Of a stretch of 64,000 nt of DNA, positions 14,568-62,903 are shown piece after piece. This DNA is from Hyphomicrobiales bacterium (lineage in GTDB: Bacteria > Pseudomonadota > Alphaproteobacteria > Rhizobiales > NORP267), in contig JAJFHA010000002.1 of NCBI GenBank assembly GCA_021775875.1, forward strand, positions 230,228 through 294,227, in the 5' to 3' direction. The notes under the pieces were generated by a model. The model had not been told where the DNA came from and did no database searches. It saw only the letters and a list, made by a program, of their open reading frames with translations. The translations under genes and the position numbers were made by a program. Position 1 is the first letter of the stretch, and every line of letters starts with the position of its first letter.

Positions 14568-18733
<4,166 letters not shown>

Positions 18734-22469: not shown

Positions 22470-22800
22470 CGCAAACGAACCGAGAAAGTGGAGGCTTCTG
22501 TTGCCAGGTGCCTCCGGACCCCGCCTGACCTTGCTAAAGACCAGGACTTAAGTTCGGTTTTTCGCGCTAACTATGCAGCGAGAGCAACCTCAGCGTTGTT
22601 GTCATTTGCAACTACTGTTTTGGTCCGATATCGGTGGTACCATGCCGAGCGAAAACAAGTCTTTTACACCCTCGTCGATCCTATTTCGCCCCCACAGATG
22701 CCGTCAAAATTTGACTAACAGCATGTGGTGGAGGCGCCGGGTACCGCCCCCGGGTCCGAATGGCTTATTGCAACCGTCATTTATCGCCATAGTCAGAATG
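22470..22800 (-). ncRNA. ssrA: Circularly permuted two-piece tmRNA gene (ssrA): acceptor piece, about 32-nt intervening segment, coding piece
   Basis: On the minus strand the acceptor piece ends CCGGGGGCGGTACCCGG-CGCCTCC-ACCA (CCA at 22726-22728). The coding piece starts GGGGGCGAAATAGGATCGACGAGGG (5' end at 22693). GGGGGCG pairs with CGCCTCC, giving the G3:U Ala identity pair. Tag frame 22609->22571 reads GCA AAT GAC AAC AAC GCT GAG GTT GCT CTC GCT GCA TAG = ANDNNAEVALAA*. The outer ends are approximate. Confidence 0.8.
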
Positions 22801-22882
22801 AACTGACAGGGTATATATAGGCCCGAAAGGTGTTGAAATAAAGTAGTGAAAAATCGAATTTCCAAAACGGGAGAATTATCGC

Positions 22883-50039: not shown

Positions 50040-50115
50040 AGGCGCGTAGCTCAGTTGGTAGAGCAGCTGACTCTTAATCAGCATGTCCGGGGTTCGAACC
50101 CCCGCGCGCCTACCA
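50040..50115 (+). tRNA. tRNA-Lys (anticodon CUU), CCA encoded
   Basis: Cloverleaf read by hand: AGGCGCG-TA-GCTC-AGTTGGTA-GAGC-A-GCTGA-CTCTTAA-TCAGC-ATGTC-CGGGG-TTCGAAC-CCCCG-CGCGCCT-A-CCA. Confidence 0.95.
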
Positions 50116-50133
50116 AACATTTCAATGACTTAG
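50070..50133 (+). repeat. attL-side direct repeat (tRNA-Lys anticodon loop to 18 nt past CCA)
   Basis: Aligns with 62662-62725 at 57/64 positions by my hand alignment, including the perfect blocks tccggggttcga and cccccgcgcgcctaccaaa. Confidence 0.8.
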
Positions 50134-50950
50134 CGGGTTATTGGCAATATTTCCGCTGAAATTTTCCACATGTGCTACGTCTATGCTACATGTCAAACTC
50201 CAATCCCCATTCTAGAATTTAGGGCGATTGGCGGTTTCATTGGTTCTTGCCATTAGTCGGATTCAACGAAACCTTCGAGGTGTGGTCTGTCGTTAACCGG
50301 GTTTCTTCTAATTAGGTTAGTTCTCTATTACCATCTCGAAGGGGGCGGCATTGATATCCCCATCATAATCGCGCCCCTTCATAAATAACGCCCCGTGCAG
50401 TACTGACAGTTCCCTACTGACAGTTCCCTACTACATCAACCATACGCCATGCGCACTAGTTATCTAACAGTACGCACTGGTAACCTCACGCGCGTATTCT
50501 TCCAGAATAAGAGACACCATTCTATCACTGTGTCACTCTTATAAATTCACCCCCCATTCCACCATTGCACCACCATAGAATAGATAGTCCTTCATAGATT
50601 GAACCCCATGCTTTCCCCTACCAACTAAACCGCACCCACGTTTTCCGGCTTGGACTTATCCCTGCGGGATCGTCCCGCCTACGTGGGCAATCACCACTTG
50701 CCTTTGGGCCAGCCGCCCGGCCACGCTCAAGCGCCCCCATCATAAAATGATATCGCTCTTATCGTAGCCCCGCGCTCGTTCTGTATGGGCACCCTTGTCG
50801 CGCGCCACCCCTATGGCTTTCAATCGCTCAATGGGTCCCATCTTTTACCCGCCGACCCCGACCCCGCGCTCGTACTAATACAAGCGTGCGGGGGTGCGTG
50901 GGTGAGCTTCCGGTTTCGCCAATAAAAAATTTGGAAGGAAAAAATTAGAA

Positions 50951-51283
50951 TTGCACCTGCCCATGAATTTCGAACACGGCAGCTTATATCCTGCACGCCA
51001 TCAATGGTGGCTAGTCAATTTACATATTCATTTGCTGCAAAGATCAGCGATCTCCTGTTTTCAGAAAGATAAGTATGGGCAAAAAAATCCTCTCATAAGG
51101 CGGGGAGACATTGAGGTAAAATTTAAACTCGTTCGCCTTGGTTTAAAAAATGAGTGCCTGGGCCTTCGGTATCTCGACGGTCACCTGGACTTGCCACGGT
51201 TTAGTTCCGCGTCCTTGAATGGAATAATTGCCATAAAGAAGAAAAATTATGTTGAGCAAACGCGGCGACGAATTTCATCATAA
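50951..51283 (+). CDS. Hypothetical ORF in the AT-rich island leader region (doubtful)
   Basis: 110 codons from a TTG, with GGAAGGA 11 nt upstream. No recognisable motif; composition is consistent with a random ORF in AT-rich DNA. Confidence 0.2.
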   Translation: MHLPMNFEHGSLYPARHQWWLVNLHIHLLQRSAISCFQKDKYGQKNPLIRRGDIEVKFKLVRLGLKNECLGLRYLDGHLDLPRFSSASLNGIIAIKKKNYVEQTRRRISS

Positions 51284-51887
51284 TCTTCTCATTGTTCCTG
51301 GGTAATTATGGCAGATAATAGTCCGCGAAATAATAGTCTGCGATGATCAATCTGTGAACAAACAAAATCAAATGGCAAACGATCACAAGGCTCGATATTT
51401 GCTACGTGCTCGCCGATTGCAGACGATCTTTCGTGCTTTGTCCATCACCAATTGCACTTAAAACGCCCATAGCGGACTCTCTAGGGTTGTTTGCAACATT
51501 GCTGCTTCCATCATGGTGCAATGACAATATCGCTCTTGTCAGCCTTCTGTGGCGCTCTGTCGCTTTGCTGCTATTTTGGCATTGTGGTCGGCAAAACAAT
51601 CTGAGCGAACCAAATCTTTGACCAAGAAACTGAATCCGATTGGCTAAAATTTGCTTTAGAGCTCAGTTGCTAGGCGTGTAAAAATTGAATTTGTTCGTCG
51701 CCGCGCAAAATTTATGCCCATCATTGAGGGGTGTTTCAGACGAAATTCTAAAATCAATCTGTGTCTGAAAATTACCAGAATAGGCCATTGCAGAAATTTC
51801 TGCTCTCTGCCCTGAGCTGCCGTTTGGCAGTTCCGCATATTTCAGAATGAAAATCAGCAAAGCGAACATTTATCGAATTTAAATGTT

Positions 51888-51915
51888 AATTGCCTTCACC
51901 ACCAGGTGGGCAATT
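51888..51915 (-). terminator. Possible terminator hairpin at the end of the three-gene island operon
   Basis: AATTGCC-N14-GGCAATT with an inner CACC/GGTG pairing, overlapping the stop codon of the 336-aa gene. The downstream tract is A/U-rich but not a clean U run. Confidence 0.3.
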
Positions 51916-52924
51916 ATTCGGCAGCAGAAACGCCAAGGTTTGGAATATCTCTAAACAAAAACGTATCGCGGGCACCAATGGAATACTTGTTAGGATAGTG
52001 CTGTTTTGGCGTCGAAGTGATAACTCTGATTTCGGGTCGCTCTTTTGCAAATAACCAACAACCAACTGTCTGCATTTTGCTTCCGAGAGGGGCGACTATA
52101 AAATTGAACCGGTAGCGGTTGTAGTTATTCTCATATTGAGCGCACAAAAAGTTGTAAGTCGCACGCCAATCAAGAGTCTCGACGTCATAAACAATGCTAT
52201 CGGACAACAGATCAAAATTTGGTATATCAACTGAATCACCGCGCCATTTTAAGTCATCGCGAACGGGTTGCCCTCGTACTAGAACTCTCACATTTGTTTC
52301 GAGCGCCTGTAAAATCGCACTTAATCTCCCTCTTTTGAACGGCAGGAACGTAATTAAAAAGAGCGGGTAATTGGGGAGCATCTGACCTTTCAGATCATCA
52401 AATTCTTCAATTTCACAATGGGATGAATGCAGTACTTTACTATTTTCAAATTCATTCATCTTTACGAAGGCCTTTTGGAGATCTTCCTCGTTCGCGATTT
52501 CTTCGAAGTCCCCAAAAGTTGGATAATACTCTTCTGCTTCTGTATACAGTAAGTCGAATTCCAAGCCAGAATCATAAAGGGTTGAGAGGACGTTCATCAT
52601 GATAGTTCTTGAACAACCTGTGATGTCAAAAATGACCAGATCTGACCCAGGAACGAGCGACTTGAGGAATTCCCTAAACCTGCTGAGCTCTGTTGTCATG
52701 AATTCTTGATATCCGTTTGGAGGACAAAGGCCACCTGAAAGCTGTTTGATAATTTTCCAGTTTTTTTCGTTCTCTGACCCGTCAAACTTAAGTAGGACAC
52801 AGTTCTTTGCGGGAACGCCGAGGTCATTCAATTTTTGCGCGGAGGTGATAGCCCTGTCTTCAAATCCGGCACAAAATATGAAGGTGATGTGCCGTGCTTC
52901 GTGTGTTAAGATCTCAAGCTTCAT
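51914..52924 (-). CDS. Island operon gene 3: 336-aa protein of unknown function with two Rossmann-like halves
   Basis: The ATG overlaps the upstream stop (ATGA). Strand-loop elements ITFIFCAGFEDRA / LVIFDITGCSRTIMMNVLSTL in the first half and LFLITFLPFKRGR / NFIVAPLGSKMQTVGCWLFA in the second. No catalytic motif recognised. Confidence 0.7.
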   Translation of the reverse strand: MKLEILTHEARHITFIFCAGFEDRAITSAQKLNDLGVPAKNCVLLKFDGSENEKNWKIIKQLSGGLCPPNGYQEFMTTELSRFREFLKSLVPGSDLVIFDITGCSRTIMMNVLSTLYDSGLEFDLLYTEAEEYYPTFGDFEEIANEEDLQKAFVKMNEFENSKVLHSSHCEIEEFDDLKGQMLPNYPLFLITFLPFKRGRLSAILQALETNVRVLVRGQPVRDDLKWRGDSVDIPNFDLLSDSIVYDVETLDWRATYNFLCAQYENNYNRYRFNFIVAPLGSKMQTVGCWLFAKERPEIRVITSTPKQHYPNKYSIGARDTFLFRDIPNLGVSAAE

Positions 52925-55491
52925 TGATCAACGGTCTGCGCAAGTTGATCAATGAAGCTTGACTGATCACTTGGCCCAACGCCACCCTCTGCAACACGGG
53001 TCCTGAGAAATTTATCTGGCTCAACAACAAATGCTTCAAAGCTCTTGGCAGTCATCGGTAACGTGTTCGCGCTGTTATATGTAGTTGGAAATGCCGGGGT
53101 AAAGATTTTTCGAAACCACAGTTTTCGTGCGGGACTGCCTTTGCCAGAATTACTGAAGCCTCCATCAATGAATACGCCACTTTGTAGCAACTCAACGATC
53201 GCTTCAGAAGTGCCATTGGAAATATCATCCATCTCAATTTCAATCTTCAGGTACTCTTTTGGCTTGTCTCGCTTCTGTTTACCAGGTCGACGCTCAAGTA
53301 ACTTAAATCTAGAAAATTTTCCGAAGATTAGTGCTATTTGATACAAATCTACACCGCCCGAAGTCGTTGCATCTCGGAGCCTGTAGAGCTCTCGCCAGGC
53401 GTACTGTCTGATTACTCTGTGTTGGGTGTTTACGGAGATTTGGCCTTCATTTGACAAACGCAGCATTTGCCCAAGCATGTCGATCAAGTAGCTGATATCG
53501 CCAGAGCATAGCTTCATCACGGTGTTTCTGCCACAATATCGGAAATGTCTTGCATTCTGCTTTTCACTCAACTCTCTGAGTCTCTCTGCAATAGGACCGC
53601 CATTATCCTCGCCAAGCAATTCTTTGAGATCGCGCCCTTTGTAGCTTTTTGAAAATGCGAACCTCCGCGCGAAAATGTCATCAACAAAATCAGTAACAGT
53701 TTCCTCTGAACTGCTCAGTGCTATAGCTTCGAGGTATGACCTGCCGAGGTTAATCTCTCTAAATTCTCGGTTTAGTTTGTAGTGATTTCCCCGCAAGTCC
53801 TCTGTTACTACGCTTTCGCTGTGTGCGCTTACGCGAAAACTATAATTCCCGCCCGAATTCCAGATCAGTGGTAAGAGTGTTCTTTGGACTTTAACAGGGA
53901 CCTTTGGGCTCGAGAAATCATCCAACAGGAAAACGATGTTCTTCCTTTCGAACAAATTAGAAAGTGCGTGCAGTTTCGCGACGAGCCCGGTGAAAAAATT
54001 CGAATTGAGTAGAGATCCAGAAGGAGGCTCCGATATTTGGTTTAGAACCAATATGTTTTGTTGTCGCTTAACTTGTGTAGCCAAAGCTGAGATTCCGCCT
54101 GATCGGACCAACCCCAGGCTGGTGGATACATAGTCACAAAGTTCCCACTCAGAGATTGGATCTAAGTTCCAAATATTGCGAACCTGCCCGTATTCGATCG
54201 CGTGGAGAACTTCTGTTACGAAAAGCAGGATAAAGTAATAAACAGTTAGTTCTTCAGATTGGGCCCAAGGTGGGAGCTTCTTCAGCGAACAATGGTTGCC
54301 GATGTCGATCCGCGCTGAAACAAAGAATGCAAGATATTCATCCCTGTTAAAGCGACTTTGTATGGAGCCCAATTTTTCGCCATCGAAGTGCGGTAATATC
54401 CTTGTGCTAAGCCTCATGCTACGAAGAATTATCGTTTTTCCGCAGCCTCTTGGGCCCGTGATCAGCGTCCCCTGGGACTCTGGGCTTGCGATGCTGCCTA
54501 TCCACGGAATTGACCCAGAAAAAAGATAGTTGATGTAACCATCATTCGGAAAATCGTTTGCGTTTAAGTAACCAAATGGATCGTCAAGTTCTACAACTTC
54601 GTTGTTTGCTAGCAACAACCTGCTTTCGAACAAGGATGTTAATTCTGCCATGAGCGTAGTTGCCGTGTCGATGCTACGGGCTTGGTTTTCATCAAAAAGC
54701 CTGGACACCAGAGTAGAAACACCATCCAGTATAAATTGCTCTTCACGTGTCGACTGCGGGCCCTCTGCAAGAGCTACTATTTTTAACTCATTCATGTGAG
54801 ATGCCAAGAATTGCAGATCGCTTAGTCGGTCTTCGTGCTTCTCTCCACGAAAAACAGCAGAACCGATATCGACAATTTTACAGATATAGGGGCTGCTAAT
54901 TTTCCGAGTTCTTATCTCCGTCGGATCAAGTTGTCGTACTAAAATGTTGTCCGAATTCAAGTCGTTGTGCCACAAGTTCTTGTCTTCAAACCGTTCTAAT
55001 CCCGCCGTAACATCGAAAATTACGCTAATGATTTCACTTGCTGTTTGTGGTTTGTTTTTGATAAACTCCGTCAGTGTAATTCCTTCTACCCATTCCATAA
55101 CTATAAAGTAGAAGTTCAATTCTTCTTCGAGTAATTTTAACGAAATGGAACCCGCGTCCTCCAGAGTCGCAATGTGAGGATGTTGACCTAATTTGTGATA
55201 TCGAGAAATTTCCGATTCGAATGATTTATCTACCTGTTCGTACAATCGAACGGGTACCAATTTCAGCGCAAACGATTTGCCAATGCGATTTATCGCTCGG
55301 AATACTGCGCCATAGTGACCCCGGTCGACACTTTTTTTGAGGGTATATATATCGACAGTTTGCCCCTCTAACAGAGGGCCAATGTCCAAGGGCTTTCCAC
55401 ACTCAGGACAAGTATCTTTTTGGGATTTTGATGTGCCCTTCGCGCAAAAAAAGCAGGGATAGTTTCTTTCTGACGGTCGTTGAATTGCCAC
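52921..55491 (-). CDS. Island operon gene 2: Zn-ribbon + Hanks-type Ser/Thr protein-kinase-like domain + P-loop NTPase fusion (856 aa)
   Basis: GTG start 3 nt after the upstream stop (TAA-CCA-GTG). C13/C16/C28/C31 ribbon. Kinase motifs RGHYGAV, FALK(77)LV, VMEWVEG, WHND(177)LNSDN(182)ILV, KIVD(208)IG. Walker A GPRGCGK(352)T and Walker B IVFLLDD(524-525). About 330-aa helical C-terminal region. Confidence 0.8.
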   Translation of the reverse strand: MAIQRPSERNYPCFFCAKGTSKSQKDTCPECGKPLDIGPLLEGQTVDIYTLKKSVDRGHYGAVFRAINRIGKSFALKLVPVRLYEQVDKSFESEISRYHKLGQHPHIATLEDAGSISLKLLEEELNFYFIVMEWVEGITLTEFIKNKPQTASEIISVIFDVTAGLERFEDKNLWHNDLNSDNILVRQLDPTEIRTRKISSPYICKIVDIGSAVFRGEKHEDRLSDLQFLASHMNELKIVALAEGPQSTREEQFILDGVSTLVSRLFDENQARSIDTATTLMAELTSLFESRLLLANNEVVELDDPFGYLNANDFPNDGYINYLFSGSIPWIGSIASPESQGTLITGPRGCGKTIILRSMRLSTRILPHFDGEKLGSIQSRFNRDEYLAFFVSARIDIGNHCSLKKLPPWAQSEELTVYYFILLFVTEVLHAIEYGQVRNIWNLDPISEWELCDYVSTSLGLVRSGGISALATQVKRQQNILVLNQISEPPSGSLLNSNFFTGLVAKLHALSNLFERKNIVFLLDDFSSPKVPVKVQRTLLPLIWNSGGNYSFRVSAHSESVVTEDLRGNHYKLNREFREINLGRSYLEAIALSSSEETVTDFVDDIFARRFAFSKSYKGRDLKELLGEDNGGPIAERLRELSEKQNARHFRYCGRNTVMKLCSGDISYLIDMLGQMLRLSNEGQISVNTQHRVIRQYAWRELYRLRDATTSGGVDLYQIALIFGKFSRFKLLERRPGKQKRDKPKEYLKIEIEMDDISNGTSEAIVELLQSGVFIDGGFSNSGKGSPARKLWFRKIFTPAFPTTYNSANTLPMTAKSFEAFVVEPDKFLRTRVAEGGVGPSDQSSFIDQLAQTVDQ

Positions 55492-55494
55492 TGG

Positions 55495-56694
55495 TTATTT
55501 TTCTTTTCTTAAGTTCATTCTTTCATTTCTTACGTATATTAAATTAATAATATTTTCTCTGTTCCATGACTTGTACTCTATCTGCCGCCTAGAACGCGGC
55601 ACGATCCATCGCTGCTTTGCTAAGGCACTTACCTCAGAAACTGAAAGTAATTTCGAAAGGTCCGGCGTACCTTCGCCGGTTCTCAGAATCTGGAAAGAAT
55701 TTGCTGCTAATTTTCCTAAGAATACTTGTCTCTTGATTCCATGATGCAATAAATTTTGCTGAAGGCCAAGAGCTTTGAATGCCGCTCTTATCGTACGCAG
55801 CCTCCAGTTCGGCCCTTGTCCGAAATCATTTTGGTTCACATATGGATGTTCTTGTTGGCGCAGATAATCGCGCAGTTCTTCGAAGAGTGCGTCGGGAATA
55901 TGAAAGTGACCCCACCCCTTTGTGTAACCGATCGGTTCTAAATATTTTTTTCCCCCAAGGTTCAACCTGTTGTAAACTGATGAACGCCCCATTGACGAAC
56001 TTGTGGTGATAGCAAGCAAACGCGCCGCTTTCTGTTTGCCCGAAATAATCCCCACAGTCTCGCCATATTTCCTTTGGAAGTCGTCATATACATCCCGTGT
56101 TTGAATAAGGCATGCGATCGCTTTGCCAACAAGCAGATGGTTGTACGGTGGCAGAGCACCAAGCACATATGCATCAAGGATATTGCAAAGTCGCGCTGAT
56201 CGGTCAGACGCATCCCAGTTTATCAACTGATCTCGCACATTCAGGTTAAAAACAGGATCTCCAAGCGCTATAATACCCGCTAGCTTTTCGTGGTACTTGT
56301 CCCAGACGAGATAGCGCATTCTTCGTCCAAATCCACTAGATACGGGCACAGACCAAGTCAGGCTTGCTAATCGAAAAAGCCGGGCCTCAAAGGTGTTCGA
56401 CTTGACTTGGATTAAGGATAGCTCAATGTCCTCGGGCGATAGTTCAGACCCATTGGCCACCACAGCTTCAAATTCAGAGTAACCCAGCGCAATCAATCGT
56501 TCGCTTGACGCAATTTTATCCGCGCGGTGCACTGAGTGCAACTTCCTGATAGTTGTCTTGTCACCAGTAGGTGGTGAAAGCAGGCCGCCCTCACCTTTGA
56601 TGAACCCAAGCGAACTAAAGTGTGAACGCAATTTTCGTTTCAGTTGTGCCTCTAAGCTTAAAACTGGAATAGAGCCATTTCGGGAAACAGTCAT
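55495..56694 (-). CDS. Island operon gene 1: DUF4338-like (Druantia DruA-like) protein
   Basis: Core GFGRRMRYLVWD...LAGIIALGDPVFNLNVRDQLINW...RLCNILDAYVLGALPPYNHLLVGK...LLAITTSSSMGRSSVYNRLNL...IGYTKGWG follows the DUF4338 pattern as I recall it (G..[LM]RYLV ... RD..I.W ... RL ... T.S..G.S.Y.R.N ... G.T.G.G). Start placed at Met79 (MTVSR). The listed ORF extends to 56928 but would then overlap the divergent gene. Confidence 0.65.
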   Translation of the reverse strand: MTVSRNGSIPVLSLEAQLKRKLRSHFSSLGFIKGEGGLLSPPTGDKTTIRKLHSVHRADKIASSERLIALGYSEFEAVVANGSELSPEDIELSLIQVKSNTFEARLFRLASLTWSVPVSSGFGRRMRYLVWDKYHEKLAGIIALGDPVFNLNVRDQLINWDASDRSARLCNILDAYVLGALPPYNHLLVGKAIACLIQTRDVYDDFQRKYGETVGIISGKQKAARLLAITTSSSMGRSSVYNRLNLGGKKYLEPIGYTKGWGHFHIPDALFEELRDYLRQQEHPYVNQNDFGQGPNWRLRTIRAAFKALGLQQNLLHHGIKRQVFLGKLAANSFQILRTGEGTPDLSKLLSVSEVSALAKQRWIVPRSRRQIEYKSWNRENIINLIYVRNERMNLRKEK

Positions 56695-56718
56695 CTTTAA
56701 GATTTTACCCTCAAATAT

Positions 56719-56747
56719 TTGGCACATATACCTGCTCAGGCTATACT
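56719..56747 (+). promoter_or_regulatory. Candidate sigma70-type promoter for the divergent oxidoreductase-GAF pair
   Basis: TTGGCA (56719-56724), 17-nt spacer, TATACT (56742-56747), inside the about 85-bp divergent intergenic region. Confidence 0.35.
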
Positions 56748-56778
56748 GAACTAAACGGAGAGGACATCCAAGAAAACA

Positions 56779-58095
56779 ATGGAACCAAATCGTTCGAGCC
56801 GAGCCATTAGTATCGAAGATAGTTTCAGTTTGTGCGATGGAATATCTGTCCTCGGCTGCTTGCAGTCCGGCGTTACAGTTTATAATCAACAGGTTAGAGC
56901 TCATAATTTGCTGTGGTCCATAAAGCAAATTGTAGATGATGGCGGGGCCGAACCAAATAGCATCGCCATTGTAGGCGGTGGGATTGGGGGGCTCACAGCC
57001 GCAGCTTGCGCACTTGCTCTCTTTTCTAAAATTGAAATCTCACTTTTTGAGAAGCAGTGGGAACTTTGCCCTCTTCAACTAGGTTCCGACAATCGTTGGC
57101 TTCACCCCAGAATTTATGATTGGCCAGATCCGGGAAGCCGAGCTCCGAGTGCATCTCTCCCGCTTTTAAATTGGACCGAAGGAAGAGCCTCCGATGTGGC
57201 GCGGCAGATTATCAGTGGTTTTGCCCAATCGACAGCGGCCACTTCTGGCACACTCAGTATGCATTTGGGAGTGAGGCATCTAAAAATAAATTCTGCAAGC
57301 CGGATGATCGAATGGATGGGCAACCGAGCTGTCCTTGATGGTGGATTTCTTAAGTTTGAAGAACCTGCCGGTAACTCGAAGAAGTTTGACAGAATAATAC
57401 TGGCGACGGGTTTTGGGCTAGAGTGCACCTCGGAAATCTCAGAAGCAGGGTCGTATTGGCAAAATGAACGACTTGGTCAGCCAGCATTCGACGGCCAACG
57501 CCAAACCTATCTGATATCGGGATATGGCGATGGAGCATTGGTTGATCTTTGCCGGCTTGTGATATCCAGATTTAGGCAAGATTCTATAGTTTATGAATTA
57601 TTTCCGAACGATATCGAAACGATGGAAGTCAAACTACTCAAACTCAAGCATGATATTATCTCGAACCCGAAGCAGGCGTTTGACTTGCTGGAGGACGCAT
57701 TTGACGGACCTCTAGCCGATGTTCCAAAATTATTCCAGCAAAGATTCCGAAACGATACTCGCGTGGTAATGCACCTTTCGGGCAAAACCTCTAACCCAAA
57801 GAGGTCAATTGCAGATTTGTTCTCTGGAGATGCATCTTTCTTGAATAAACTAGCCTTGTTTGCGCTCTATAAATCTGGTGGCTTCATACCATATTTTGGT
57901 AGTATTGATAATGCAGTAAATGAATATGGCATCGCTAAAGGACGTGTTCTAATTAGACACGGAACACAACCAACCGACGTTCTTCGGGGATTGTTTACTG
58001 ATGAAGCTGCAATCGATAAGGGAGTTTGCAGGCTTAGAGCAAAGCCAGTACAAACACCGGAGCGTTGTTGGGTACCTGGCATTTTTCCAACATAA
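56779..58095 (+). CDS. FAD/NAD(P)-binding oxidoreductase-like protein (two dinucleotide-binding motifs)
   Basis: 438 aa. N-terminal Rossmann fingerprint IAIVGGGIGGLTAAACALAL...EISLFEK, ATG-type motif DRIILATGFG, and a second GxGxxA motif YLISGYGDGALVDL. The start codon is uncertain. Confidence 0.65.
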   Translation: MEPNRSSRAISIEDSFSLCDGISVLGCLQSGVTVYNQQVRAHNLLWSIKQIVDDGGAEPNSIAIVGGGIGGLTAAACALALFSKIEISLFEKQWELCPLQLGSDNRWLHPRIYDWPDPGSRAPSASLPLLNWTEGRASDVARQIISGFAQSTAATSGTLSMHLGVRHLKINSASRMIEWMGNRAVLDGGFLKFEEPAGNSKKFDRIILATGFGLECTSEISEAGSYWQNERLGQPAFDGQRQTYLISGYGDGALVDLCRLVISRFRQDSIVYELFPNDIETMEVKLLKLKHDIISNPKQAFDLLEDAFDGPLADVPKLFQQRFRNDTRVVMHLSGKTSNPKRSIADLFSGDASFLNKLALFALYKSGGFIPYFGSIDNAVNEYGIAKGRVLIRHGTQPTDVLRGLFTDEAAIDKGVCRLRAKPVQTPERCWVPGIFPT

Positions 58096-58109
58096 ATTTT
58101 GAGGTCGAT

Positions 58110-58832
58110 ATGATGAGTGACAGGCCTGAACACCCAGAACCTGTGCCGACATCAACGCAGTTGGCGGTTCTTCCTTTCTTGGCTGCCTTAGAAGGATACC
58201 TGGCCCAAGCATCTGATGGAAAAGATTTGCGTGTCACTATGCACCGGGTGATGGCCCGTGAAAAACACCGCTATATTCAGCAAATATGTACATACTTAGG
58301 TAGCGAGTCGAACTTGGATAGCGTTGGAAAACAGAGAATAAGGGCCGGGCGACTTTTCCCCGCTAACACTGGCCTAATGGGCAAGGCGATTCATGAAAAG
58401 AGAGTGTTTCGGACTAAGCATTTTGAGAACGATCAAGCACTTGAAGAAGAATTGAAAAAAGACCTTGAAACAACAGGCTCTGGTCGCACAGTTGATGAGG
58501 TGGCAAAATCCTACTTGTCAATACCTTTTTTAGGTTCGGACCTAAGTCCAGTCCTAGTGCTATATGCAGATAGCCAGAAATTGAACTTCTTCGCCGATGA
58601 TGATCGTGTGTATGCAGTCTTGAATATGTGTGAGGGTTTTTGTCGGTTTTTCGATTGGCTTGCAACCGAAGAACCGTTCAGTACCCTAAGAAATTTTTTG
58701 ACACCGGATCAGGAATTCAAAACAACCGAGTCAACTGCATACGAAAACGTGCAAGAGCTGATTGACGTTGATTTGCCGAAATTCAAGTTTATACGGTCCT
58801 TCAATTACGAAACCACCTCTAGTCAGGCGTAG
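58110..58832 (+). CDS. GAF-like small-molecule-binding domain protein
   Basis: Start placed at Met16 (MMSDRPE) behind GAGG, 15 nt after the upstream stop. Pattern LRVTMHRV...FPANTGLMGKAIHEKRVFRT...SYLSIPFLGSDLSPVLVLYADS...FF is GAF-like by eye. Confidence 0.5.
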   Translation: MMSDRPEHPEPVPTSTQLAVLPFLAALEGYLAQASDGKDLRVTMHRVMAREKHRYIQQICTYLGSESNLDSVGKQRIRAGRLFPANTGLMGKAIHEKRVFRTKHFENDQALEEELKKDLETTGSGRTVDEVAKSYLSIPFLGSDLSPVLVLYADSQKLNFFADDDRVYAVLNMCEGFCRFFDWLATEEPFSTLRNFLTPDQEFKTTESTAYENVQELIDVDLPKFKFIRSFNYETTSSQA

Positions 58833-59120
58833 GTTAACGAAATCTCGCTATTTGAGACTGCTGTGCCCGCTGTGTTTTCTTGAAAATTGGGTTTGCAGTC
58901 CCTGTACCCTGGCCAAGCCCAAGTTGGACTGCATTACTCAAAGCGTCTTAGTATCAGTATGAAAGTCCAATTCTGGGAAGTGAAGTGTGGGTGTTGCATA
59001 TGCAGCCGAAGTCTCCTTTCCCACCATTTTGGTCACTATACGCATTACAACGAGAGACCGAATTGGGTCAGGAACTGCGCACGAATTGACCAACATCGTC
59101 CAGATGATCCGCACCCAAGA

Positions 59121-60335
59121 TCAAATGCAGTTACGTCCAATTAGGCCCAATGTTTGAGGGTCTTGAAATCCCATCATAAACCCGTTGCTAACGCTTTCAT
59201 TTGCATGACTGAATGGCCAGGATTCAACAAAACTGATGCTTCTGATATTTGACCATTCGCCTTCGTTAATAGGAATGCGCAACATGTAAACAGTATGGGG
59301 CTCGTTTTCATAGCTTACAGAACCCAGAACTTGAAATGTGCCAACGCGGGTAAAATTTCCGAGGTCGAATTCAAAACTTGCACCATTCCATCGATCAACA
59401 TTTGCACCGGATGGCATCGATACAGACACTGACATTGAATTGTCGCGACACTGGACTCGTCTGATAATTGGGCGGTTCAAATAATAGCCCGTGCTTTGTG
59501 CCGTCAGAACGCCTTGAAATTGCGTCAGGCCAAACGGCTCATCCGACCTAGTATTGATAACTCTCAATTCTTTTGCCTCCCCCACAGACAAGAGTCGAAT
59601 TCCACTGCCAGCGATCGGAGACGTTGCCGCCGCGAGCGCCGCAACGCGCGGGCTGGCACCCATTTTATCTACATAACCGACAACAATGCCGGTCAGTCTT
59701 TGCGTCTCAGCTAGGTCTTCGTAGGTGGCAACAGGGACCTCTGGATTCTCGATGATATCCAACAAACGTGGATCGTAAAATTGATGAATGCCGTATGAAT
59801 CAGCATTGTAAAAACTCCGTTCAAATCCACCGAGAAAGGCATAGGCGCAGGCCGAATAGCATTGCCCAGAATTCAGTTCTTCCAACTCCATGAAGCTATC
59901 CTCAGAAAGAGGAACAGAAATAGTTTCCCCGATACCGGTATTCAGGAAACGCTTCCGGATGATACTTCCCAATCTCAGTCCGCCCAAAAGATTCCCACCC
60001 GGTGAGTTAAAAAAGACTCTCGCTCTAAAATTAATGCCTGCATCATCCAGCCAATTTAAAAATTGATCAGGCGTGTCCTGGGTTATTTTTCCTTCAGCAG
60101 AAATCCATTCACTTCCAGCCATATTGCCACCGCTGCTGGCGTAACAGAAAGTCATTGGTGCACTGTAACGATTATCAGCGCGACAAACCTCTTTGTTGGT
60201 TTCCCACCAGCCATCACTTCTGGCCACAGCCAAGGGAGCCAAGATTGTGCTAAAAATACAAAAGAAAAAAAGCCGCGTAAATTTCAAAAGAACTCCATGG
60301 CTAGGGTAAAAAAACATTGTTGAATTCGTGAACAC
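59121..60335 (-). CDS. Secreted ClpP/SppA-fold (COG3904-type 'predicted periplasmic') protein with extra C-terminal beta domain
   Basis: 404 aa with an N-terminal hydrophobic signal. FFNSPGGNLLGGLRLGSIIRK and CYSACAYAFLGG resemble the ClpP/NfeD/SppA oxyanion and Ser regions. Confidence 0.55.
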   Translation of the reverse strand: MFTNSTMFFYPSHGVLLKFTRLFFFCIFSTILAPLAVARSDGWWETNKEVCRADNRYSAPMTFCYASSGGNMAGSEWISAEGKITQDTPDQFLNWLDDAGINFRARVFFNSPGGNLLGGLRLGSIIRKRFLNTGIGETISVPLSEDSFMELEELNSGQCYSACAYAFLGGFERSFYNADSYGIHQFYDPRLLDIIENPEVPVATYEDLAETQRLTGIVVGYVDKMGASPRVAALAAATSPIAGSGIRLLSVGEAKELRVINTRSDEPFGLTQFQGVLTAQSTGYYLNRPIIRRVQCRDNSMSVSVSMPSGANVDRWNGASFEFDLGNFTRVGTFQVLGSVSYENEPHTVYMLRIPINEGEWSNIRSISFVESWPFSHANESVSNGFMMGFQDPQTLGLIGRNCI

Positions 60336-60427
60336 TAAAACTCAGACCTATCCATTGTGGCGGCATCCTACTGTATTTTGGAATGACTATCAGACCGGCT
60401 AAATTATTAGAGAATAACTTAGCCGCC

Positions 60428-60673
60428 CTATTGACAATTTAGCCTTCTCCGCACTTCCAAACAGCCATCAACATACCCGTCAGCCCAACCCAAGCCAGCT
60501 TGGGCCTCCTTGCTATTATCCATACTCCAATAATTTGGATTGCAGCGGCACAATTGTGACTCTGCTTCAGCCCAACCACTATCATATTTTTCTTCAGATA
60601 CTTCGCTTTCGAGACAGGCCGCAAGAGGAAGTATTGCGATTGAAATCACAATTAACCGAACAAAAATTTGCAT
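60428..60673 (-). CDS. Small lipoprotein (81 aa)
   Basis: Internal Met of ORF 60428..60994. MQIFVRLIVISIAILPLAAC has a lipobox L-A-A-C. Four further Cys in the mature part. Confidence 0.5.
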   Translation of the reverse strand: MQIFVRLIVISIAILPLAACLESEVSEEKYDSGWAEAESQLCRCNPNYWSMDNSKEAQAGLGWADGYVDGCLEVRRRLNCQ

Positions 60674-60764
60674 ACTAGATTTTTCCCTTCTTGAGGTTGC
60701 TCCATATGCTGGACCATGACTTAAAGTGATTTCCGGCCTTATAGACACCATCAGCCGGTTGGGG

Positions 60765-60994
60765 TTGCCATTGGATTTGATGGACTCCATCGGCGTTTTC
60801 TGGCCGATTGAGCTGTGCGGGTGTTCGTAATTGCAGTCATGTCTGAACACCCCGCATTTTACCTGAGCATCGGCCAGTGACAAGAACCATTTCTGATCGA
60901 TGCATTCTGCCCTGACCTTGCCGTAGAGTGCCCCCAAAAAACTGGTGTCGGTGGGCTTGCTTGGTCGTGAAAAGTCCAGAATCACCCCATTCAT
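60765..60994 (-). pseudogene. 3'-terminal remnant of an IS3-family transposase (OrfB integrase-core C-terminus)
   Basis: SRPSKPTDTSFLGALYGKVRAECIDQKWFLSLADAQVKCGVFRHDCNYEHPHSSIGQKTPMES parallels the IS3 OrfB C-terminus (SRPG.P.DNA..ESFN...R.E......F.SL.DA......W...YN..RPHS.LG..TP.E). No DDE core, OrfA or frameshift site upstream. Confidence 0.7.
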
Positions 60995-61197
60995 GTAAGT
61001 CCTCGGTAAATATCTGGCCTTCTACAACACTTAGAGACCGCATTCATCGCATGACTGGCAGATGCCCGATCAGGCTAAGTTCAAACTGAGACACATCAAA
61101 ATTAATTATTTTGTCCTCACTCTGGATTGATTGAATGCAGAACACGTAGTGAACTCCGACACATATTTTAAATTGTATTGTCGAAATCCGCTCCTGC

Positions 61198-62439
61198 TCA
61201 TACGTCATCGCTAATTGGTGCCAAATTGGGCACGGAATGGGTATCCGGTGAGACACCAGTGTCCATGTTCATTTTACGAGCGATATCGCCGCTGACGCGC
61301 TCCCTTGCGGCTCTCTCGGGCGATTGCCCGATGTGGGCATACCGCTCTGTTGTGGATGATTGCGAGTGCCCTAGTAATTTTCCGATCATGGGAAGCGACA
61401 TGCCGCCAGCTGCCGCAGTGGAGGCATAAGAATGTCTAAGATCATGGATACGCAAATCGTCGAGGCCTATCTCAGAACGAAGCTTACGCCATATTTTTGG
61501 TAAACCTTGATAGAATCCATTTTTACCGGTGCCGGGCAGGAGAAATGGATTTCCAATCATTTTATGATGCAACTCCAGCTTGTTTAGGATGCTTGTCTCA
61601 GATTGCGACAGTTGTATGGTGCGAGCACCTGTTTTCGTGTCGGGTAGATAGAGGAGATGCTGCTCTTTATCCCAATCGTTCCACCGCGCTTTGACGATTT
61701 CGCTGTACCGGCAACCTGTAAGCAATAGGAGCCGGATTGCCGCTACAGCAAGTGGATAATTTTTTTCTGCTGTCATCAGAGTTTTGCTAAGCCGCTCGAA
61801 TTCCTCGTTCGACAAATAACGCTCTCTTTTGTTTTCGCGATACTTCTCGATATCGCTTACCGGGTTTTCGCCGGTATAGATCTTCGCCTTTCTCAAATAC
61901 GAAAACATCGAACTCAAGACTGACAAAAGGTAATTTGCCATGCGCGGTTTGCTGTTTAACTTCCGATGCAAAGCTGAGATGGCGGCGTGGTCAACTTTGT
62001 CAATTTTCATATTTGCAAACGCTGGCAGAAGATGATTCTTGGCGAGGTTCCGATAGTCCCGAATGGTTTTCGCCTTCCGCTTGGATTCTACATGCTGTTG
62101 CAGAAATATCTCCCATGCCTGCGAGAAATTCAGCATCAGCTTGTCTGCATCCCGTACGGCTTGCGGGTCTTCTCCCAACTCGGCCATCGATAGATAGTTT
62201 TTGGCCTTGCCCCGCGCATCTCGCGCCGAAACTAAATCCGCTCGACCGACCGATACCCATCGATAGGTGGTGCTTGGACGAACGCGGTATTTGACAACAA
62301 ATGTCCTGGTCGTTTTTCCCCTAATCGAAGTAATGCACCGGCACCCGAACCCGGCGAGATCAGTATCCCATGCCGTCAGGCGCTTCCCCGGTGGCGGGTT
62401 TAGATGGCCAATGGAGGTGTCGTTGAGTTTGAGTTTCAT
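61198..62439 (-). CDS. int: Tyrosine-type site-specific integrase (P4/DUF4102-type N-terminus)
   Basis: 413 aa. N-terminal arm-binding-like LTAWDTDLAGFGCRC...TFVVKYR, core-binding SAM-like region, catalytic LLLLTGCRYSEI, HDLRHSYAS, LGHSQSSTTERYAH (Tyr nucleophile). Confidence 0.9.
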   Translation of the reverse strand: MKLKLNDTSIGHLNPPPGKRLTAWDTDLAGFGCRCITSIRGKTTRTFVVKYRVRPSTTYRWVSVGRADLVSARDARGKAKNYLSMAELGEDPQAVRDADKLMLNFSQAWEIFLQQHVESKRKAKTIRDYRNLAKNHLLPAFANMKIDKVDHAAISALHRKLNSKPRMANYLLSVLSSMFSYLRKAKIYTGENPVSDIEKYRENKRERYLSNEEFERLSKTLMTAEKNYPLAVAAIRLLLLTGCRYSEIVKARWNDWDKEQHLLYLPDTKTGARTIQLSQSETSILNKLELHHKMIGNPFLLPGTGKNGFYQGLPKIWRKLRSEIGLDDLRIHDLRHSYASTAAAGGMSLPMIGKLLGHSQSSTTERYAHIGQSPERAARERVSGDIARKMNMDTGVSPDTHSVPNLAPISDDV

Positions 62440-62661
62440 TGGTCGAACCTGTTTTCTCGAAGTGGCTAGCTACGGCGCGCTTTTAGTCGCTCCAAATTTT
62501 TGGTGCTACGGACGGTGCTACGTCCATCATAGGCATGTTTCATCCATTTTATGAAGGGGCAATAATGGAGAATAGCTGAAAAAACGCAGAAATCCCGCGT
62601 AAAATACATCGCTGCGTCTAAATAATTGGGCTGGATCGCAACTAGAATGGGAGTCCTGCTA

Positions 62662-62725
62662 ACTCTTAATCAGCGGGTCCGGGGTTCGAGCCCCCGCGCG
62701 CCTACCAAAGAAATCAAAGACTTAG
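62662..62725 (+). repeat. attR-side direct repeat: displaced 3' half of tRNA-Lys (not a functional tRNA)
   Basis: aactcttaatcagcgggtccggggttcgagcccccgcgcgcctaccaaagaaatcaaagacttag. There is no matching 5' acceptor or D arm upstream, and the anticodon stem is broken. Confidence 0.8.
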
Positions 62726-62903
62726 GTCAATATGTTGTAGCATAGAAAGAGAACGAGAGACACTTTTGGGGTCTCATGGTCTCGGGTGAGATTTTTGTTC
62801 TTTACTTCTTCAAGTCGGCTCGGTCCAGATTGCAGGGGAGCTTGACGCTTTGAGGGCTCATATCAACCAGTTTCTCGAAGATATTGAGACGACCTGTCTG
62901 GAA

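What the first reader, a model, noticed from the sequence alone, without database searches (positions are those of the whole stretch)
50040..62725. 12.6-kb island integrated into the 3' end of tRNA-Lys(CUU), with a diverged 64-bp att duplication extending beyond the tRNA
The intact tRNA (50040-50115) is followed by AT-rich DNA. A second copy of its 3' part plus 18 nt of downstream flank reappears at 62662-62725, matching 57/64 positions by hand alignment. The mismatches cluster in the variable loop (atg versus ggg), the T loop (a versus g) and the post-CCA tail. Perfect 12-bp and 19-bp blocks remain, and the crossover probably fell within them. The integrase sits at the distal end next to the partial copy rather than next to the intact tRNA. 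No excisionase-like ORF is visible, and there are no phage, conjugation or replication genes. It is therefore a minimal integrative element whose payload is almost entirely uncharacterised genes.
Basis: seen in the sequence. Interest (0 to 1): 0.55.

Follow-up and report, generated by a model that had tools for sequence, protein, structure and literature searches.

The report
Defence-gene island in a tRNA-Lys gene
A 12.6-kb piece of foreign DNA was inserted by its own integrase into a lysine tRNA gene of an alphaproteobacterium; this is an ordinary kind of genomic island, and its cargo is a rare, conserved five-gene set that looks like an unstudied anti-phage defence system.

Summary
tRNA-Lys(CUU) lies at 50040-50115. 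A second copy of its positions 31-76 plus 18 nt of flank lies at 62662-62725 (57/64 identical, spacing 12,592 bp). The DNA between has 45.9% GC against 53.4% outside.

It is a tRNA-targeting integrative island of a well-known kind.

1. The crossover most likely fell in the anticodon loop (identical block, tRNA positions 31-43), not in the 19-bp block. The displaced copy keeps the variable loop seen in 26 of 28 related alphaproteobacteria, so the working tRNA carries an element-derived 3' half.

2. The integrase position is normal for its clade. In 41 of 56 loci with homologous integrases, a tRNA 3' fragment starting at the anticodon loop lies 171-403 nt upstream of int, divergently (here 241 nt).

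3. The payload is not featureless. Five genes form a module conserved in other mobile elements: DruA/DUF4338, a Ser/Thr kinase fused to an ORC/Cdc6 ATPase, a CARF-like protein, a Lamassu-effector-like FAD-binding protein and a GAF-fold protein.

There is no excisionase, and an IS3 remnant sits where a related island has one. No empty site could be found, because no close relative is available.

The parts
50040..50115 (+). tRNA-Lys(CUU), regenerated at attL. The 5' part is host DNA. The part 3' of the anticodon loop is inferred to be element-derived.
   Evidence: ARAGORN and Rfam at 72.5 bits. Its variable loop ATGTC is absent from all 28 relatives' tRNA-Lys(CUU) genes.
50070..50082 (+). 13-nt block ACTCTTAATCAGC identical in both copies. 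It covers the last base of the anticodon stem's 5' strand, the anticodon loop and the 3' strand of the stem (tRNA positions 31-43). This is the proposed crossover region at attL.
   Evidence: Alignment. Perfect att repeats of the related islands L102 and L170 start at tRNA positions 32 and 31. The tRNA fragments next to integrase homologs start at the anticodon loop.
50120..50132 (+). TTTCAATGACTTA, one mismatch from the IHF consensus WATCAANNNNTTR. It lies within the post-CCA part of the repeat.
   Evidence: Sequence. The consensus is from general knowledge. Binding was not tested.
50172..50191 (+). Candidate arm-type integrase sites: GTGCTACG at 50172-50179 and a degenerate copy ATGCTACA at 50184-50191. 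This would be the P' arm.
   Evidence: GTGCTACG occurs only 3 times in 64 kb, and all three lie next to the att cores on the same strand. That these are integrase-binding sites is my inference.
50134..51913 (.). Left end of the island, 1.8 kb, with no convincing ORF, no family hit and no similar plasmid DNA.
51914..52924 (-). CARF-like protein, 336 aa. Third gene of the DruA/kinase-ATPase/CARF-like triad.
   Evidence: PADLOC CARF6 models, E=1.9e-17 to 5e-15. Homologs of 37-60% identity sit directly after the kinase-ATPase gene in 7 loci.
52921..55491 (-). Ser/Thr protein kinase fused to an ORC/Cdc6-like AAA ATPase, 856 aa, with an N-terminal four-Cys motif.
   Evidence: Pfam Pkinase 1.9e-14 and ORC-CDC6-like 4e-32. 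PADLOC CARF_STK_AAA 8e-67. K77, E94, D177, N182, D208, Walker A (346-353) and Walker B (D524, D525) are invariant in 30 homologs.
55495..56697 (-). DruA/DUF4338 protein, about 400 aa from Met-78. The mechanical ORF runs up to 56928.
   Evidence: Pfam DruA 9e-77. PADLOC DruA 5e-184. Homologs are 394-410 aa. DUF4338 is read as a GNAT-like acetyltransferase in PMC10853773.
56779..58095 (+). FAD/NAD(P)-binding protein (GxGxxG motif), 438 aa. It is homologous to the N-terminal domain of a Lamassu LmuA model.
   Evidence: PADLOC LmuA PDLC03858, E=5e-68, model positions 17-350 of 827. Weak Pfam NAD_binding_8 and DAO hits. 2,242 representative clusters match, and many are about 700 aa with this domain at the N terminus.
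58110..58832 (+). GAF-fold protein, 240 aa. Partner of the FAD-binding protein.
   Evidence: AlphaFold2 model at pLDDT 91. The top Foldseek PDB hits are GAF domains at probability 1.0. The family has 27 proteins and no Pfam domain.
59121..60335 (-). 404-aa protein with a hydrophobic, signal-peptide-like N terminus. No family assignment.
   Evidence: No hit in Pfam, NCBIfam, PHROGs, PADLOC or PDB sequences. The signal peptide is my reading of the sequence.
60428..60673 (-). Small lipoprotein-like ORF (MQIFVRL...LAAC), in frame with the IS remnant upstream of it.
   Evidence: My reading of the sequence. No Pfam hit.
60755..60994 (-). Remnant of an IS3-family transposase. Only the last 70 or so residues of the rve core are left.
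   Evidence: Pfam rve_3 2.7e-14, profile positions 2-67 of 67. NCBIfam IS3 transposase positions 299-367 of 369.
61198..62439 (-). Tyrosine integrase, 413 aa, with the P4-like domain set (Arm-DNA-bind_3, SAM-like, catalytic).
   Evidence: Pfam. PHROG 1 integrase 2e-61. R244, K269, H332, R335, H358 and Y367 fall in invariant columns of 28 homologs. The nearest homolog is 44% identical.
62503..62522 (+). Two direct GTGCTACG repeats (62503-62510 and 62515-62522). These are candidate arm-type sites of the P arm. A related GCTAGCTACG lies at 62466-62475.
   Evidence: That these are integrase-binding sites is my inference.
62662..62725 (+). Displaced copy of tRNA positions 31-76 plus 18 nt of flank (attR). 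Weaker similarity extends left to 62648. From the variable loop rightward it is inferred to be the original host 3' half.
   Evidence: Its variable loop GGGTC and T loop TTCGAGC match 26 of 28 and most relatives. It is not a tRNA by ARAGORN or Rfam.
62712..62724 (+). AATCAAAGACTTA, a perfect match to the IHF consensus WATCAANNNNTTR, in the post-CCA tail.
   Evidence: Sequence. Similar motifs follow tRNA-Lys(CUU) in relatives L018, L038 and L039.

Best explanation
[quoted passage not shown] It entered by site-specific recombination, catalysed by its own P4-like tyrosine integrase, between an element-borne attP and the anticodon-loop region of the host tRNA-Lys(CUU) gene.

The attP carried a tRNA-like 3' part, so integration regenerated a working gene at attL (host 5' part plus element 3' part). 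The host's original 3' half and its flank were pushed 12.6 kb away to attR, where they lie 241 nt upstream of the divergently transcribed int gene. Short GTGCTACG repeats on both sides of the core are probably the arm-type sites bound by the integrase's N-terminal domain.

The element has no phage, conjugative or replicative genes and no excisionase. An IS3 remnant sits directly downstream of int, where a related small island carries an excisionase-like gene. The island is therefore probably a degraded, poorly mobile or immobile integrative element.

Its cargo is a five-gene module arranged as two divergent operons. One operon encodes DruA/GNAT-like, then Ser/Thr kinase fused to ORC-Cdc6 ATPase, then CARF-like. 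The other encodes an FAD-binding Lamassu-effector-like protein, then a GAF-fold protein. The module recurs on other mobile elements and is most plausibly an anti-phage defence system. The remaining cargo is two secreted or lipoprotein-like ORFs.

Shown: the repeat, the tRNA, the GC shift, the integrase domains and catalytic residues, the clade-wide fragment/int arrangement, and conservation of the module. Inferred: the crossover position, the origin of each tRNA half, the arm and IHF sites, loss of an excisionase, and the defence function.
For: Repeat and tRNA.

Composition: the island has 45.9% GC against 53.4% outside, with no overlap between one-kb windows.

Integrase: full domain set and the R-K-H-R-H-Y residues.

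Clade-wide architecture: among 82 loci encoding homologs of 31-42% identity, 41 of the 56 with at least 300 nt of upstream DNA have a tRNA 3' fragment. It starts at the anticodon loop, is divergent from int, and has its T arm 171-403 nt from the int start (the window is 241). The same pattern is expected at most 0.04 times per region. Only two of these fragments are complete tRNAs.

L102 is a complete 6-kb island with the same layout: fragment, then int, then cargo, then an intact tRNA-Lys(UUU) with a 46-nt perfect repeat starting at tRNA position 32.

Crossover position: identity begins at tRNA position 31, as in L102 and L170. The displaced copy carries GGGTC, found in 26 of 28 related tRNA-Lys(CUU) genes. 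The intact gene's ATGTC is found in none.

Arm sites: all three GTGCTACG copies in 64 kb flank the cores.

Known class: Islander lists 2,083 of 3,919 islands as having an anticodon-centred attP (PMC4383910).

Cargo.
Against: No empty site, excised circle or island-free relative could be examined. The exact LeuA and integrase proteins occur only in short contigs from two sequencing runs, and the nearest species-level genome is 76% identical in LeuA.

The argument about the origin of each tRNA half rests on distant relatives.

The similarity beyond the CCA end, and an inverted TCTATGCTACA at 62735-62745, show that the 'host' flank right of attR also looks element-like. A remnant of an earlier occupant may therefore lie there.

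The integrase has host-like GC3 (0.546), unlike the cargo (0.40-0.46). Integrase and cargo may have different histories.

The defence function of the cargo rests only on domain content and genomic context.
Confidence: 0.87

Rival explanations
1. The island is an old, fixed remnant. The seven mismatches between the two copies come from mutational decay after integration, not from two different tRNA alleles, and the crossover position cannot be recovered.
For: There is no excisionase. An IS3 remnant lies next to int. The left end has 1.8 kb without genes. The repeat is only 85-89% identical, whereas the related islands L102 and L170 have perfect 46- and 50-nt repeats.
Against: The mismatches avoid every stem: the T stem and the acceptor strand are perfect. 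Within the tRNA part they fall only in the variable loop and T loop. This is what two functional alleles would show, not random decay of an unconstrained fragment. The displaced copy matches the consensus of relatives at exactly the sites that differ. The integrase ORF is intact with all catalytic residues.
Confidence: 0.3
2. The site holds the remains of two successive elements. The sequence right of the displaced copy (62708 to about 62900) is the left edge of an earlier island that was mostly deleted, so the true host junction lies further right.
For: The tail after the displaced copy contains a perfect IHF-like motif. It also contains an 11-nt inverted match, TCTATGCTACA, to the putative arm site of attL. 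I estimate roughly 0.02 such matches by chance.
Against: Only about 180 bp separate the copy from the stop of a host-like aminotransferase gene (GC 0.555). There is no third tRNA-like copy in the window. IHF-like motifs also follow tRNA-Lys(CUU) in several relatives, so they may belong to the host site.
Confidence: 0.12
3. The right-hand copy is a tRNA pseudogene left by local duplication, unrelated to the integrase. The low-GC segment arrived by another route.
For: Weak similarity continues left of the anticodon loop: 9 of 14 identities at tRNA positions 17-30.
Against: The copy sits at the clade-typical distance and orientation from an intact integrase. The GC shift coincides with the two copies. 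Putative arm repeats flank both copies. The copy starts at the same tRNA position as perfect att repeats in related islands.
Confidence: 0.03

Closest known systems
tRNA/tmRNA-targeting genomic islands as catalogued by Islander (Hudson, Lau & Williams 2015, PMC4383910), anticodon-centred attP class
   Same: An intact tDNA and a displaced 3' fragment in the same orientation bound the element. A tyrosine integrase gene lies inside. The island sequence regenerates the tRNA. The crossover is in the anticodon loop, the class that holds 2,083 of Islander's 3,919 islands.
   Different: The two copies are only 89% identical and the similarity runs 18 nt past the CCA end. There is no excisionase. The nearest integrase homolog is 44% identical.
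P4-like integrases (Arm-DNA-bind_3/DUF4102 N-terminal domain) of alphaproteobacterial islands, for example the loci L084-L165 retrieved here
   Same: The same domain set and catalytic residues. The same layout of tRNA fragment, a gap of about 170-400 nt, then a divergent int.
   Different: The homologs found here mostly target other tRNAs: Met 20, Arg 12, Lys(UUU) 3, and Lys(CUU) only 2. From general knowledge, not tested here: classic P4-type islands of enterobacteria have int immediately downstream of the intact tRNA.
Druantia type I (DruABCDE)
   Same: The island encodes a strong DruA/DUF4338 homolog (PADLOC E=5e-184).
   Different: There is no DruB, DruC, DruD or DruE helicase. Here DruA is always paired with a kinase-ORC/Cdc6 ATPase and a CARF-like protein.
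Lamassu (LmuA effector plus LmuB SMC, with or without LmuC)
   Same: The 438-aa protein matches the N-terminal 350 positions of a PADLOC LmuA model. It also matches many proteins of about 700 aa that carry this domain at the N terminus.
   Different: The C-terminal part of LmuA is absent and there is no SMC-like LmuB. The partner is a 240-aa GAF-fold protein.
PADLOC 'CARF6--CARF_STK_AAA' fused protein model (PDLC01925, 1187 positions)
   Same: The kinase-ATPase aligns to model positions 3-796 and the next gene aligns to positions 893-1182. The two window genes together equal the fused architecture.
   Different: The architecture is split into two genes with a 4-nt overlap. The split is the rule in this subfamily, where all 30 homologs are about 855 aa.

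Membership tests
tRNA-targeting integrative genomic island (Islander criteria) | An intact tRNA gene plus a displaced 3' fragment of it, downstream and in the same orientation | tested here: met
   tRNA at 50040-50115 (+). Fragment at 62662-62725 (+), 57/64 identical, and the only such repeat in the window.
tRNA-targeting integrative genomic island (Islander criteria) | A tyrosine integrase gene inside the interval | tested here: met
   61198-62439 (-): Phage_integrase, Arm-DNA-bind_3 and SAM-like domains, with the catalytic R-K-H-R-H-Y residues.
tRNA-targeting integrative genomic island (Islander criteria) | Absence from related genomes (empty site), or a detectable excised form | not testable with these tools
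   No close relative is available. The best LeuA identity is 76%. The exact proteins occur only in short contigs from two runs. The aminotransferase gene is not syntenic in the 80 relatives.
tRNA-targeting integrative genomic island (Islander criteria) | Composition different from the host (typical, not strictly defining) | tested here: met
   45.9% GC against 53.4%, U=0, p=2.5e-7.
Prophage, ICE or IME | Phage structural or replication genes, or relaxase, T4SS or oriT functions | tested here: not met
   Pfam, PHROGs and NCBIfam give only integrase and transposase hits among mobility functions. No small ORF matches an excisionase or HTH family.
Druantia type I | DruA together with DruB, DruC, DruD and the DruE helicase in one locus | tested here: not met
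   DruA is present at E=5e-184, but no other island ORF matches Druantia models in PADLOC.
Lamassu | LmuA effector plus an SMC-like LmuB | tested here: not met
   Only the N-terminal domain of LmuA is matched. The neighbouring gene has a GAF fold, not an SMC fold. No SMC-like ORF lies in the island.
CARF-domain sensors of type III CRISPR or CBASS-like signalling | A CARF fold | tested here: inconclusive
   PADLOC CARF6 HMMs match at 1.9e-17 to 5e-15. There is no Pfam hit. The single-sequence structure model was unusable at pLDDT 34.
CARF-domain sensors of type III CRISPR or CBASS-like signalling | A linked nucleotide cyclase or Cas10 that makes the ligand | tested here: not met
   No cyclase or cas gene is present in the island or in the seven related loci. 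The rest of the genome was not examined.

The most novel reading that the evidence does not exclude
The cargo is a previously undescribed anti-phage defence system. Its core is an obligatory triad: a DruA/DUF4338 GNAT-like protein, a Ser/Thr kinase fused to an ORC/Cdc6-type ATPase, and a CARF-like protein. In one clade this triad is joined by a divergent pair, a stand-alone Lamassu-type FAD-binding effector domain and a GAF-fold sensor. The system spreads as cargo of tRNA islands, integrase islets and conjugative elements of Alphaproteobacteria. DruA would then be a shared module used outside Druantia.
Probability: 0.45. Interest if true: 0.6.

Novelty: new member of a known kind. Interest (0 to 1): 0.35.

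Why it matters
As an island, this is routine: one more anticodon-centred tRNA island with a P4-like integrase.

Two things have some value.

First, the hybrid tRNA and the diverged displaced copy give a clear worked example of reading the crossover position and the origin of each tRNA half from allele differences. The survey of 82 integrase homologs shows that the layout of 'int at the far end, divergent from the fragment' is a clade-wide rule. This is useful for island-calling software.

Second, the cargo points to a rare, conserved five-gene module. Only about 30 kinase-ATPase homologs were found among 5.8 billion proteins. The module re-uses parts of Druantia (DruA), of Lamassu (the FAD-binding effector domain) and of CRISPR-type signalling (CARF-like). 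If it is a defence system, it would give a way to study the unknown role of DruA.

Tried and rejected
Empty-site search:
- The exact LeuA protein occurs only in one 1.9-kb contig that ends inside the tRNA.
- The exact integrase occurs only in two short contigs.
- The genome-contig scan with LeuA returned nothing closer than 76% identity, and none of the 80 loci has the aminotransferase gene near tRNA-Lys.
- Single-protein scans for the integrase in metagenome and viral contigs found nothing.

Left 1.8 kb of the island (50116-51913):
- No ORF family hits.
- No similar plasmid DNA.
- No Rfam family.

Excisionase: nine small ORFs and the lipoprotein-like ORF gave no Pfam hit at E<=0.01.

Structure of the CARF-like protein:
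- The single-sequence model was unusable at pLDDT 34.

PDB sequence searches for the FAD-binding protein, the 404-aa protein and DruA found nothing meaningful.

Literature:
- A search combining DUF4338, kinase and CARF was swamped by carfilzomib papers.
- 'DruA' as a word start matched 'Druantia'.
- 'DruA' as a whole word together with 'kinase' found no relevant paper.
- Williams 2002 and Makarova 2020 are not held in the library.

Readings rejected:
- The right-hand copy as a second tRNA.
- A third att copy or tandem array in the window.
- The kinase/CARF split as a frameshift, because all homologs are split in the same way.

The 19-bp hairpin at the kinase/CARF junction is not conserved in homologs.

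Full report
OBSERVATION

ARAGORN finds one tRNA in the window, tRNA-Lys(CTT) at 50040-50115 on the + strand. Rfam agrees at 72.5 bits. The repeat finder reports 50056-50133 versus 62648-62725: 78 nt, 85% identical, spacing 12,592 bp. This is the longest dispersed direct repeat in the 64-kb window.

A pairwise alignment gives 57/64 identities from tRNA position 31 to 18 nt past the CCA end. The mismatches fall at positions 44-45 (variable loop), 59 (T loop) and 79, 81, 82, 87 (tail). A 31-nt core pattern occurs only at these two sites, with none in 100 shuffles.

The right-hand copy is not a tRNA. ARAGORN does not call it, and Rfam finds nothing there even at E<=1. The GC content of the enclosed DNA is 45.9% against 53.4% outside. 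All 11 one-kb windows inside are lower than all 51 outside (U=0, p=2.5e-7).

THE ORGANISM AND THE MISSING EMPTY SITE

The window carries a permuted alphaproteobacterial tmRNA. A scan of one genome per species with LeuA returned 80 alphaproteobacterial loci, none above 76% identity. The exact LeuA and integrase proteins occur only in short contigs from two sequencing runs. None of the 80 related loci has the class-III aminotransferase gene near tRNA-Lys.

WHERE THE CROSSOVER WAS

Three lines of evidence point to the anticodon loop rather than to the 19-bp acceptor block.

(i) Identity between the copies starts abruptly at tRNA position 31. The first perfect block, ACTCTTAATCAGC, covers the last base of the anticodon stem's 5' strand, the anticodon loop and the 3' strand of the stem.

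(ii) Related complete islands have perfect repeats that start at the same place. L102, at tRNA-Lys(UUU), has a 46-nt repeat from position 32. L170, at tRNA-Asn, has a 50-nt repeat from position 31.

(iii) Of 28 tRNA-Lys(CUU) genes from related alphaproteobacteria, 26 have the variable loop GGGTC and most have the T loop TTCGAG(C/T), as in the displaced copy. None has the ATGTC of the window's intact gene.

In a 3'-side integration, everything to the right of the crossover in attR is original host DNA, and everything to the right of it in attL comes from the element. The host-typical alleles are in attR, so the crossover lay to the left of the variable loop. The working tRNA is therefore a hybrid whose 3' half came with the element.

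The mismatches avoid all stems. Two functional alleles would look like this; random decay would not. Both copies share the unusual acceptor strand CGCGCCT, which pairs with the host's AGGCGCG. The element must therefore have come from a host with the same acceptor stem (inference).

Anticodon-centred attP sites are a large known class, 2,083 of the 3,919 islands in Islander (PMC4383910).

THE INTEGRASE AND ITS POSITION

The 413-aa ORF at 61198-62439 (-) has Arm-DNA-bind_3, SAM-like and catalytic domains. It matches PHROG 1 integrases. Its R244, K269, H332, R335, H358 and Y367 fall in invariant columns of a 28-sequence alignment. Its nearest homolog is 44% identical, and thousands of homologs lie near 40%.

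I retrieved 82 loci that encode homologs. In each I searched the 700 nt upstream of int for a T arm preceded by an anticodon loop. Of the 56 loci with at least 300 nt of upstream DNA, 41 carry such a fragment. It is always on the strand opposite to int, with the T arm 171-403 nt from the int start. In the window the distance is 241 nt. Only two of these fragments are complete tRNAs.

The same pattern is rare elsewhere in these loci. There are 62 hits in 1.13 Mb of strand sequence, and about 50 of them are the int-upstream ones. L102 shows the complete layout in 6 kb: fragment, int, cargo, intact tRNA. 'Integrase at the distal end, divergent from the displaced fragment' is therefore the rule for this clade.

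OTHER att FEATURES

GTGCTACG occurs three times in 64 kb (0.64 expected), all on the + strand. One copy is 57 nt to the right of the tRNA, at 50172. Two are 140-160 nt to the left of the displaced copy, at 62503 and 62515. Degenerate copies lie at 50184 and 62466. I read these as arm-type binding sites for the integrase's N-terminal domain (inference).

The similarity beyond the CCA end contains matches to the IHF consensus WATCAANNNNTTR. The match is perfect in attR and has one mismatch in attL. Similar motifs follow tRNA-Lys(CUU) in several relatives. The extension of the repeat past the tRNA may therefore reflect a functional motif rather than a longer exchanged segment.

MOBILITY

Pfam, NCBIfam and PHROGs find no phage, conjugation, relaxase or replication genes. 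No small ORF matches an excisionase or HTH family. Directly downstream of int lies only the C-terminal 70 or so residues of an IS3-family transposase. This remnant is fused in frame to a lipoprotein-like ORF.

In the related island L102, an HTH_17 (excisionase-type) gene lies about 1 kb downstream of int. I infer that IS activity removed such functions here, and that the island is poorly mobile or fixed. The left 1.8 kb has no recognisable gene or similar DNA. The integrase has host-like GC3 (0.546) whereas the cargo has 0.40-0.46. This hints at different histories for the two.

THE CARGO

The payload is recognisable.

On the minus strand are three genes.
- DruA/DUF4338 (PADLOC 5e-184, Pfam 9e-77). 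This domain is read as a GNAT-like acetyltransferase in PMC10853773.
- An 856-aa Ser/Thr kinase fused to an ORC/Cdc6-like ATPase. Its kinase residues and Walker motifs are invariant in 30 homologs.
- A 336-aa CARF-like protein (PADLOC CARF6 models, down to 1.9e-17).

Diverging from these on the plus strand are two genes.
- A 438-aa FAD/NAD(P)-binding protein. It matches the N-terminal 350 positions of a Lamassu LmuA model at 5e-68. It belongs to a large family in which many members are about 700 aa and carry this domain at the N terminus.
- A 240-aa protein from a 27-member family with no Pfam domain. Its AlphaFold2 model (pLDDT 91) matches GAF domains.

The kinase-ATPase family is rare, with 31 proteins at E<=1e-10, all about 855 aa. 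All seven contexts I examined have the DruA, kinase-ATPase and CARF-like triad. L166, L167 and L171 also have the divergent FAD/GAF pair.

The triad sits in several kinds of mobile element:
- an 11-kb tRNA-Asn island (L170);
- next to an integrase and a resolvase (L171);
- inside a conjugative element (L172);
- in L168, a 5.9-kb integrase-less islet bounded by tRNA-Lys(CUU) and a 32-nt copy of its 3' end, 2.4 kb from leuA.

This is the pattern expected of a mobile defence module. It is not Druantia, because DruB to DruE are absent. It is not Lamassu, because there is no SMC protein. No nucleotide cyclase is linked to the CARF-like protein. I found no paper in the held library that links DruA with a kinase.

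A working model, entirely inferred: the ORC/Cdc6-type ATPase and the CARF-like and GAF-fold proteins sense infection. The kinase, the GNAT-like DruA and the FAD-binding protein act as effectors that modify proteins or metabolites.

VERDICT

This is a real, ordinary tRNA island and a new member of a known kind. The crossover position, the significance of the integrase location and the description of the payload need correction. The most interesting part is the cargo module, which deserves its own follow-up.

Noticed in passing
window 51914-58832; loci L166-L172: A five-gene module recurs in other alphaproteobacterial mobile elements. One operon encodes DruA, a kinase-ORC/Cdc6 ATPase and a CARF-like protein. 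A divergent operon encodes an FAD-binding Lamassu-effector-like protein and a GAF-fold protein. The triad is present in 7 of 7 contexts examined and the pair in 3 of 7. It matches no named defence system that I could test.
   Followed up: yes
L168 9829-15799: In a soil-metagenome alphaproteobacterium, the same triad fills a 5.9-kb islet with no integrase. The islet is bounded by tRNA-Lys(CUU) and a 32-nt (94%) copy of its 3' end, 2.4 kb from leuA. This is the same tRNA target and the same neighbourhood as in the window.
   Followed up: partly
window 62691 (ends of L002 and L003); window 50068 (end of L001): Two assembly contigs from different runs both stop exactly at 62691. A k=31 graph would break there if another sequence shared the 31-mer starting at 62662 but had a different left neighbour. 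That could be an empty attB site or a second tRNA-Lys(CUU) gene. The leuA contig stops at 50068, which this does not explain.
   Followed up: no
window 62735-62745: TCTATGCTACA lies in inverted orientation just right of the displaced copy. It matches the putative arm-site region right of the tRNA (50180-50190). It may be a trace of an earlier element at the same site.
   Followed up: no
window 52914-52932 / 52944-52962: A perfect 19-bp inverted repeat with an 11-nt spacer spans the kinase-ATPase stop codon and the CARF-like start codon (ATGA overlap). It is absent at the same junction in five homologous loci. Its function is unknown.
   Followed up: partly
window 60428-60994: One ORF joins the last 70 or so residues of an IS3-family transposase in frame to a small lipoprotein-like sequence (MQIFVRL...LAAC). 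The real gene is probably the 81-aa lipoprotein-like ORF (60428-60673), upstream of the 404-aa signal-peptide protein.
   Followed up: partly
window 61198-62439 versus 51914-60335: The integrase has host-like GC3 (0.546) whereas the cargo genes have 0.40-0.46. Integrase and cargo may have been joined recently or may have different origins.
   Followed up: no
window 22487-22846 (-): A two-piece (permuted) alphaproteobacterial tmRNA with tag peptide ANDNNAEVALAA. No partial copy of it was seen in the window.
   Followed up: partly
window 18222-18317: A tandem hexanucleotide array, (GCACCT)n changing to (GAGCCT)n, about 16 units long. It presumably encodes an Ala-Pro / Glu-Pro repeat.
   Followed up: no
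L084 9770-9830; L085 9790-9840: Integrase homologs in long contigs have a tRNA-Lys(UUU) fragment (L084) or a tRNA-His-like fragment (L085) upstream, and no intact tRNA within 10 kb. These islands are longer than 10 kb. L084 carries restriction-modification and SNF2/PLD genes.
   Followed up: partly
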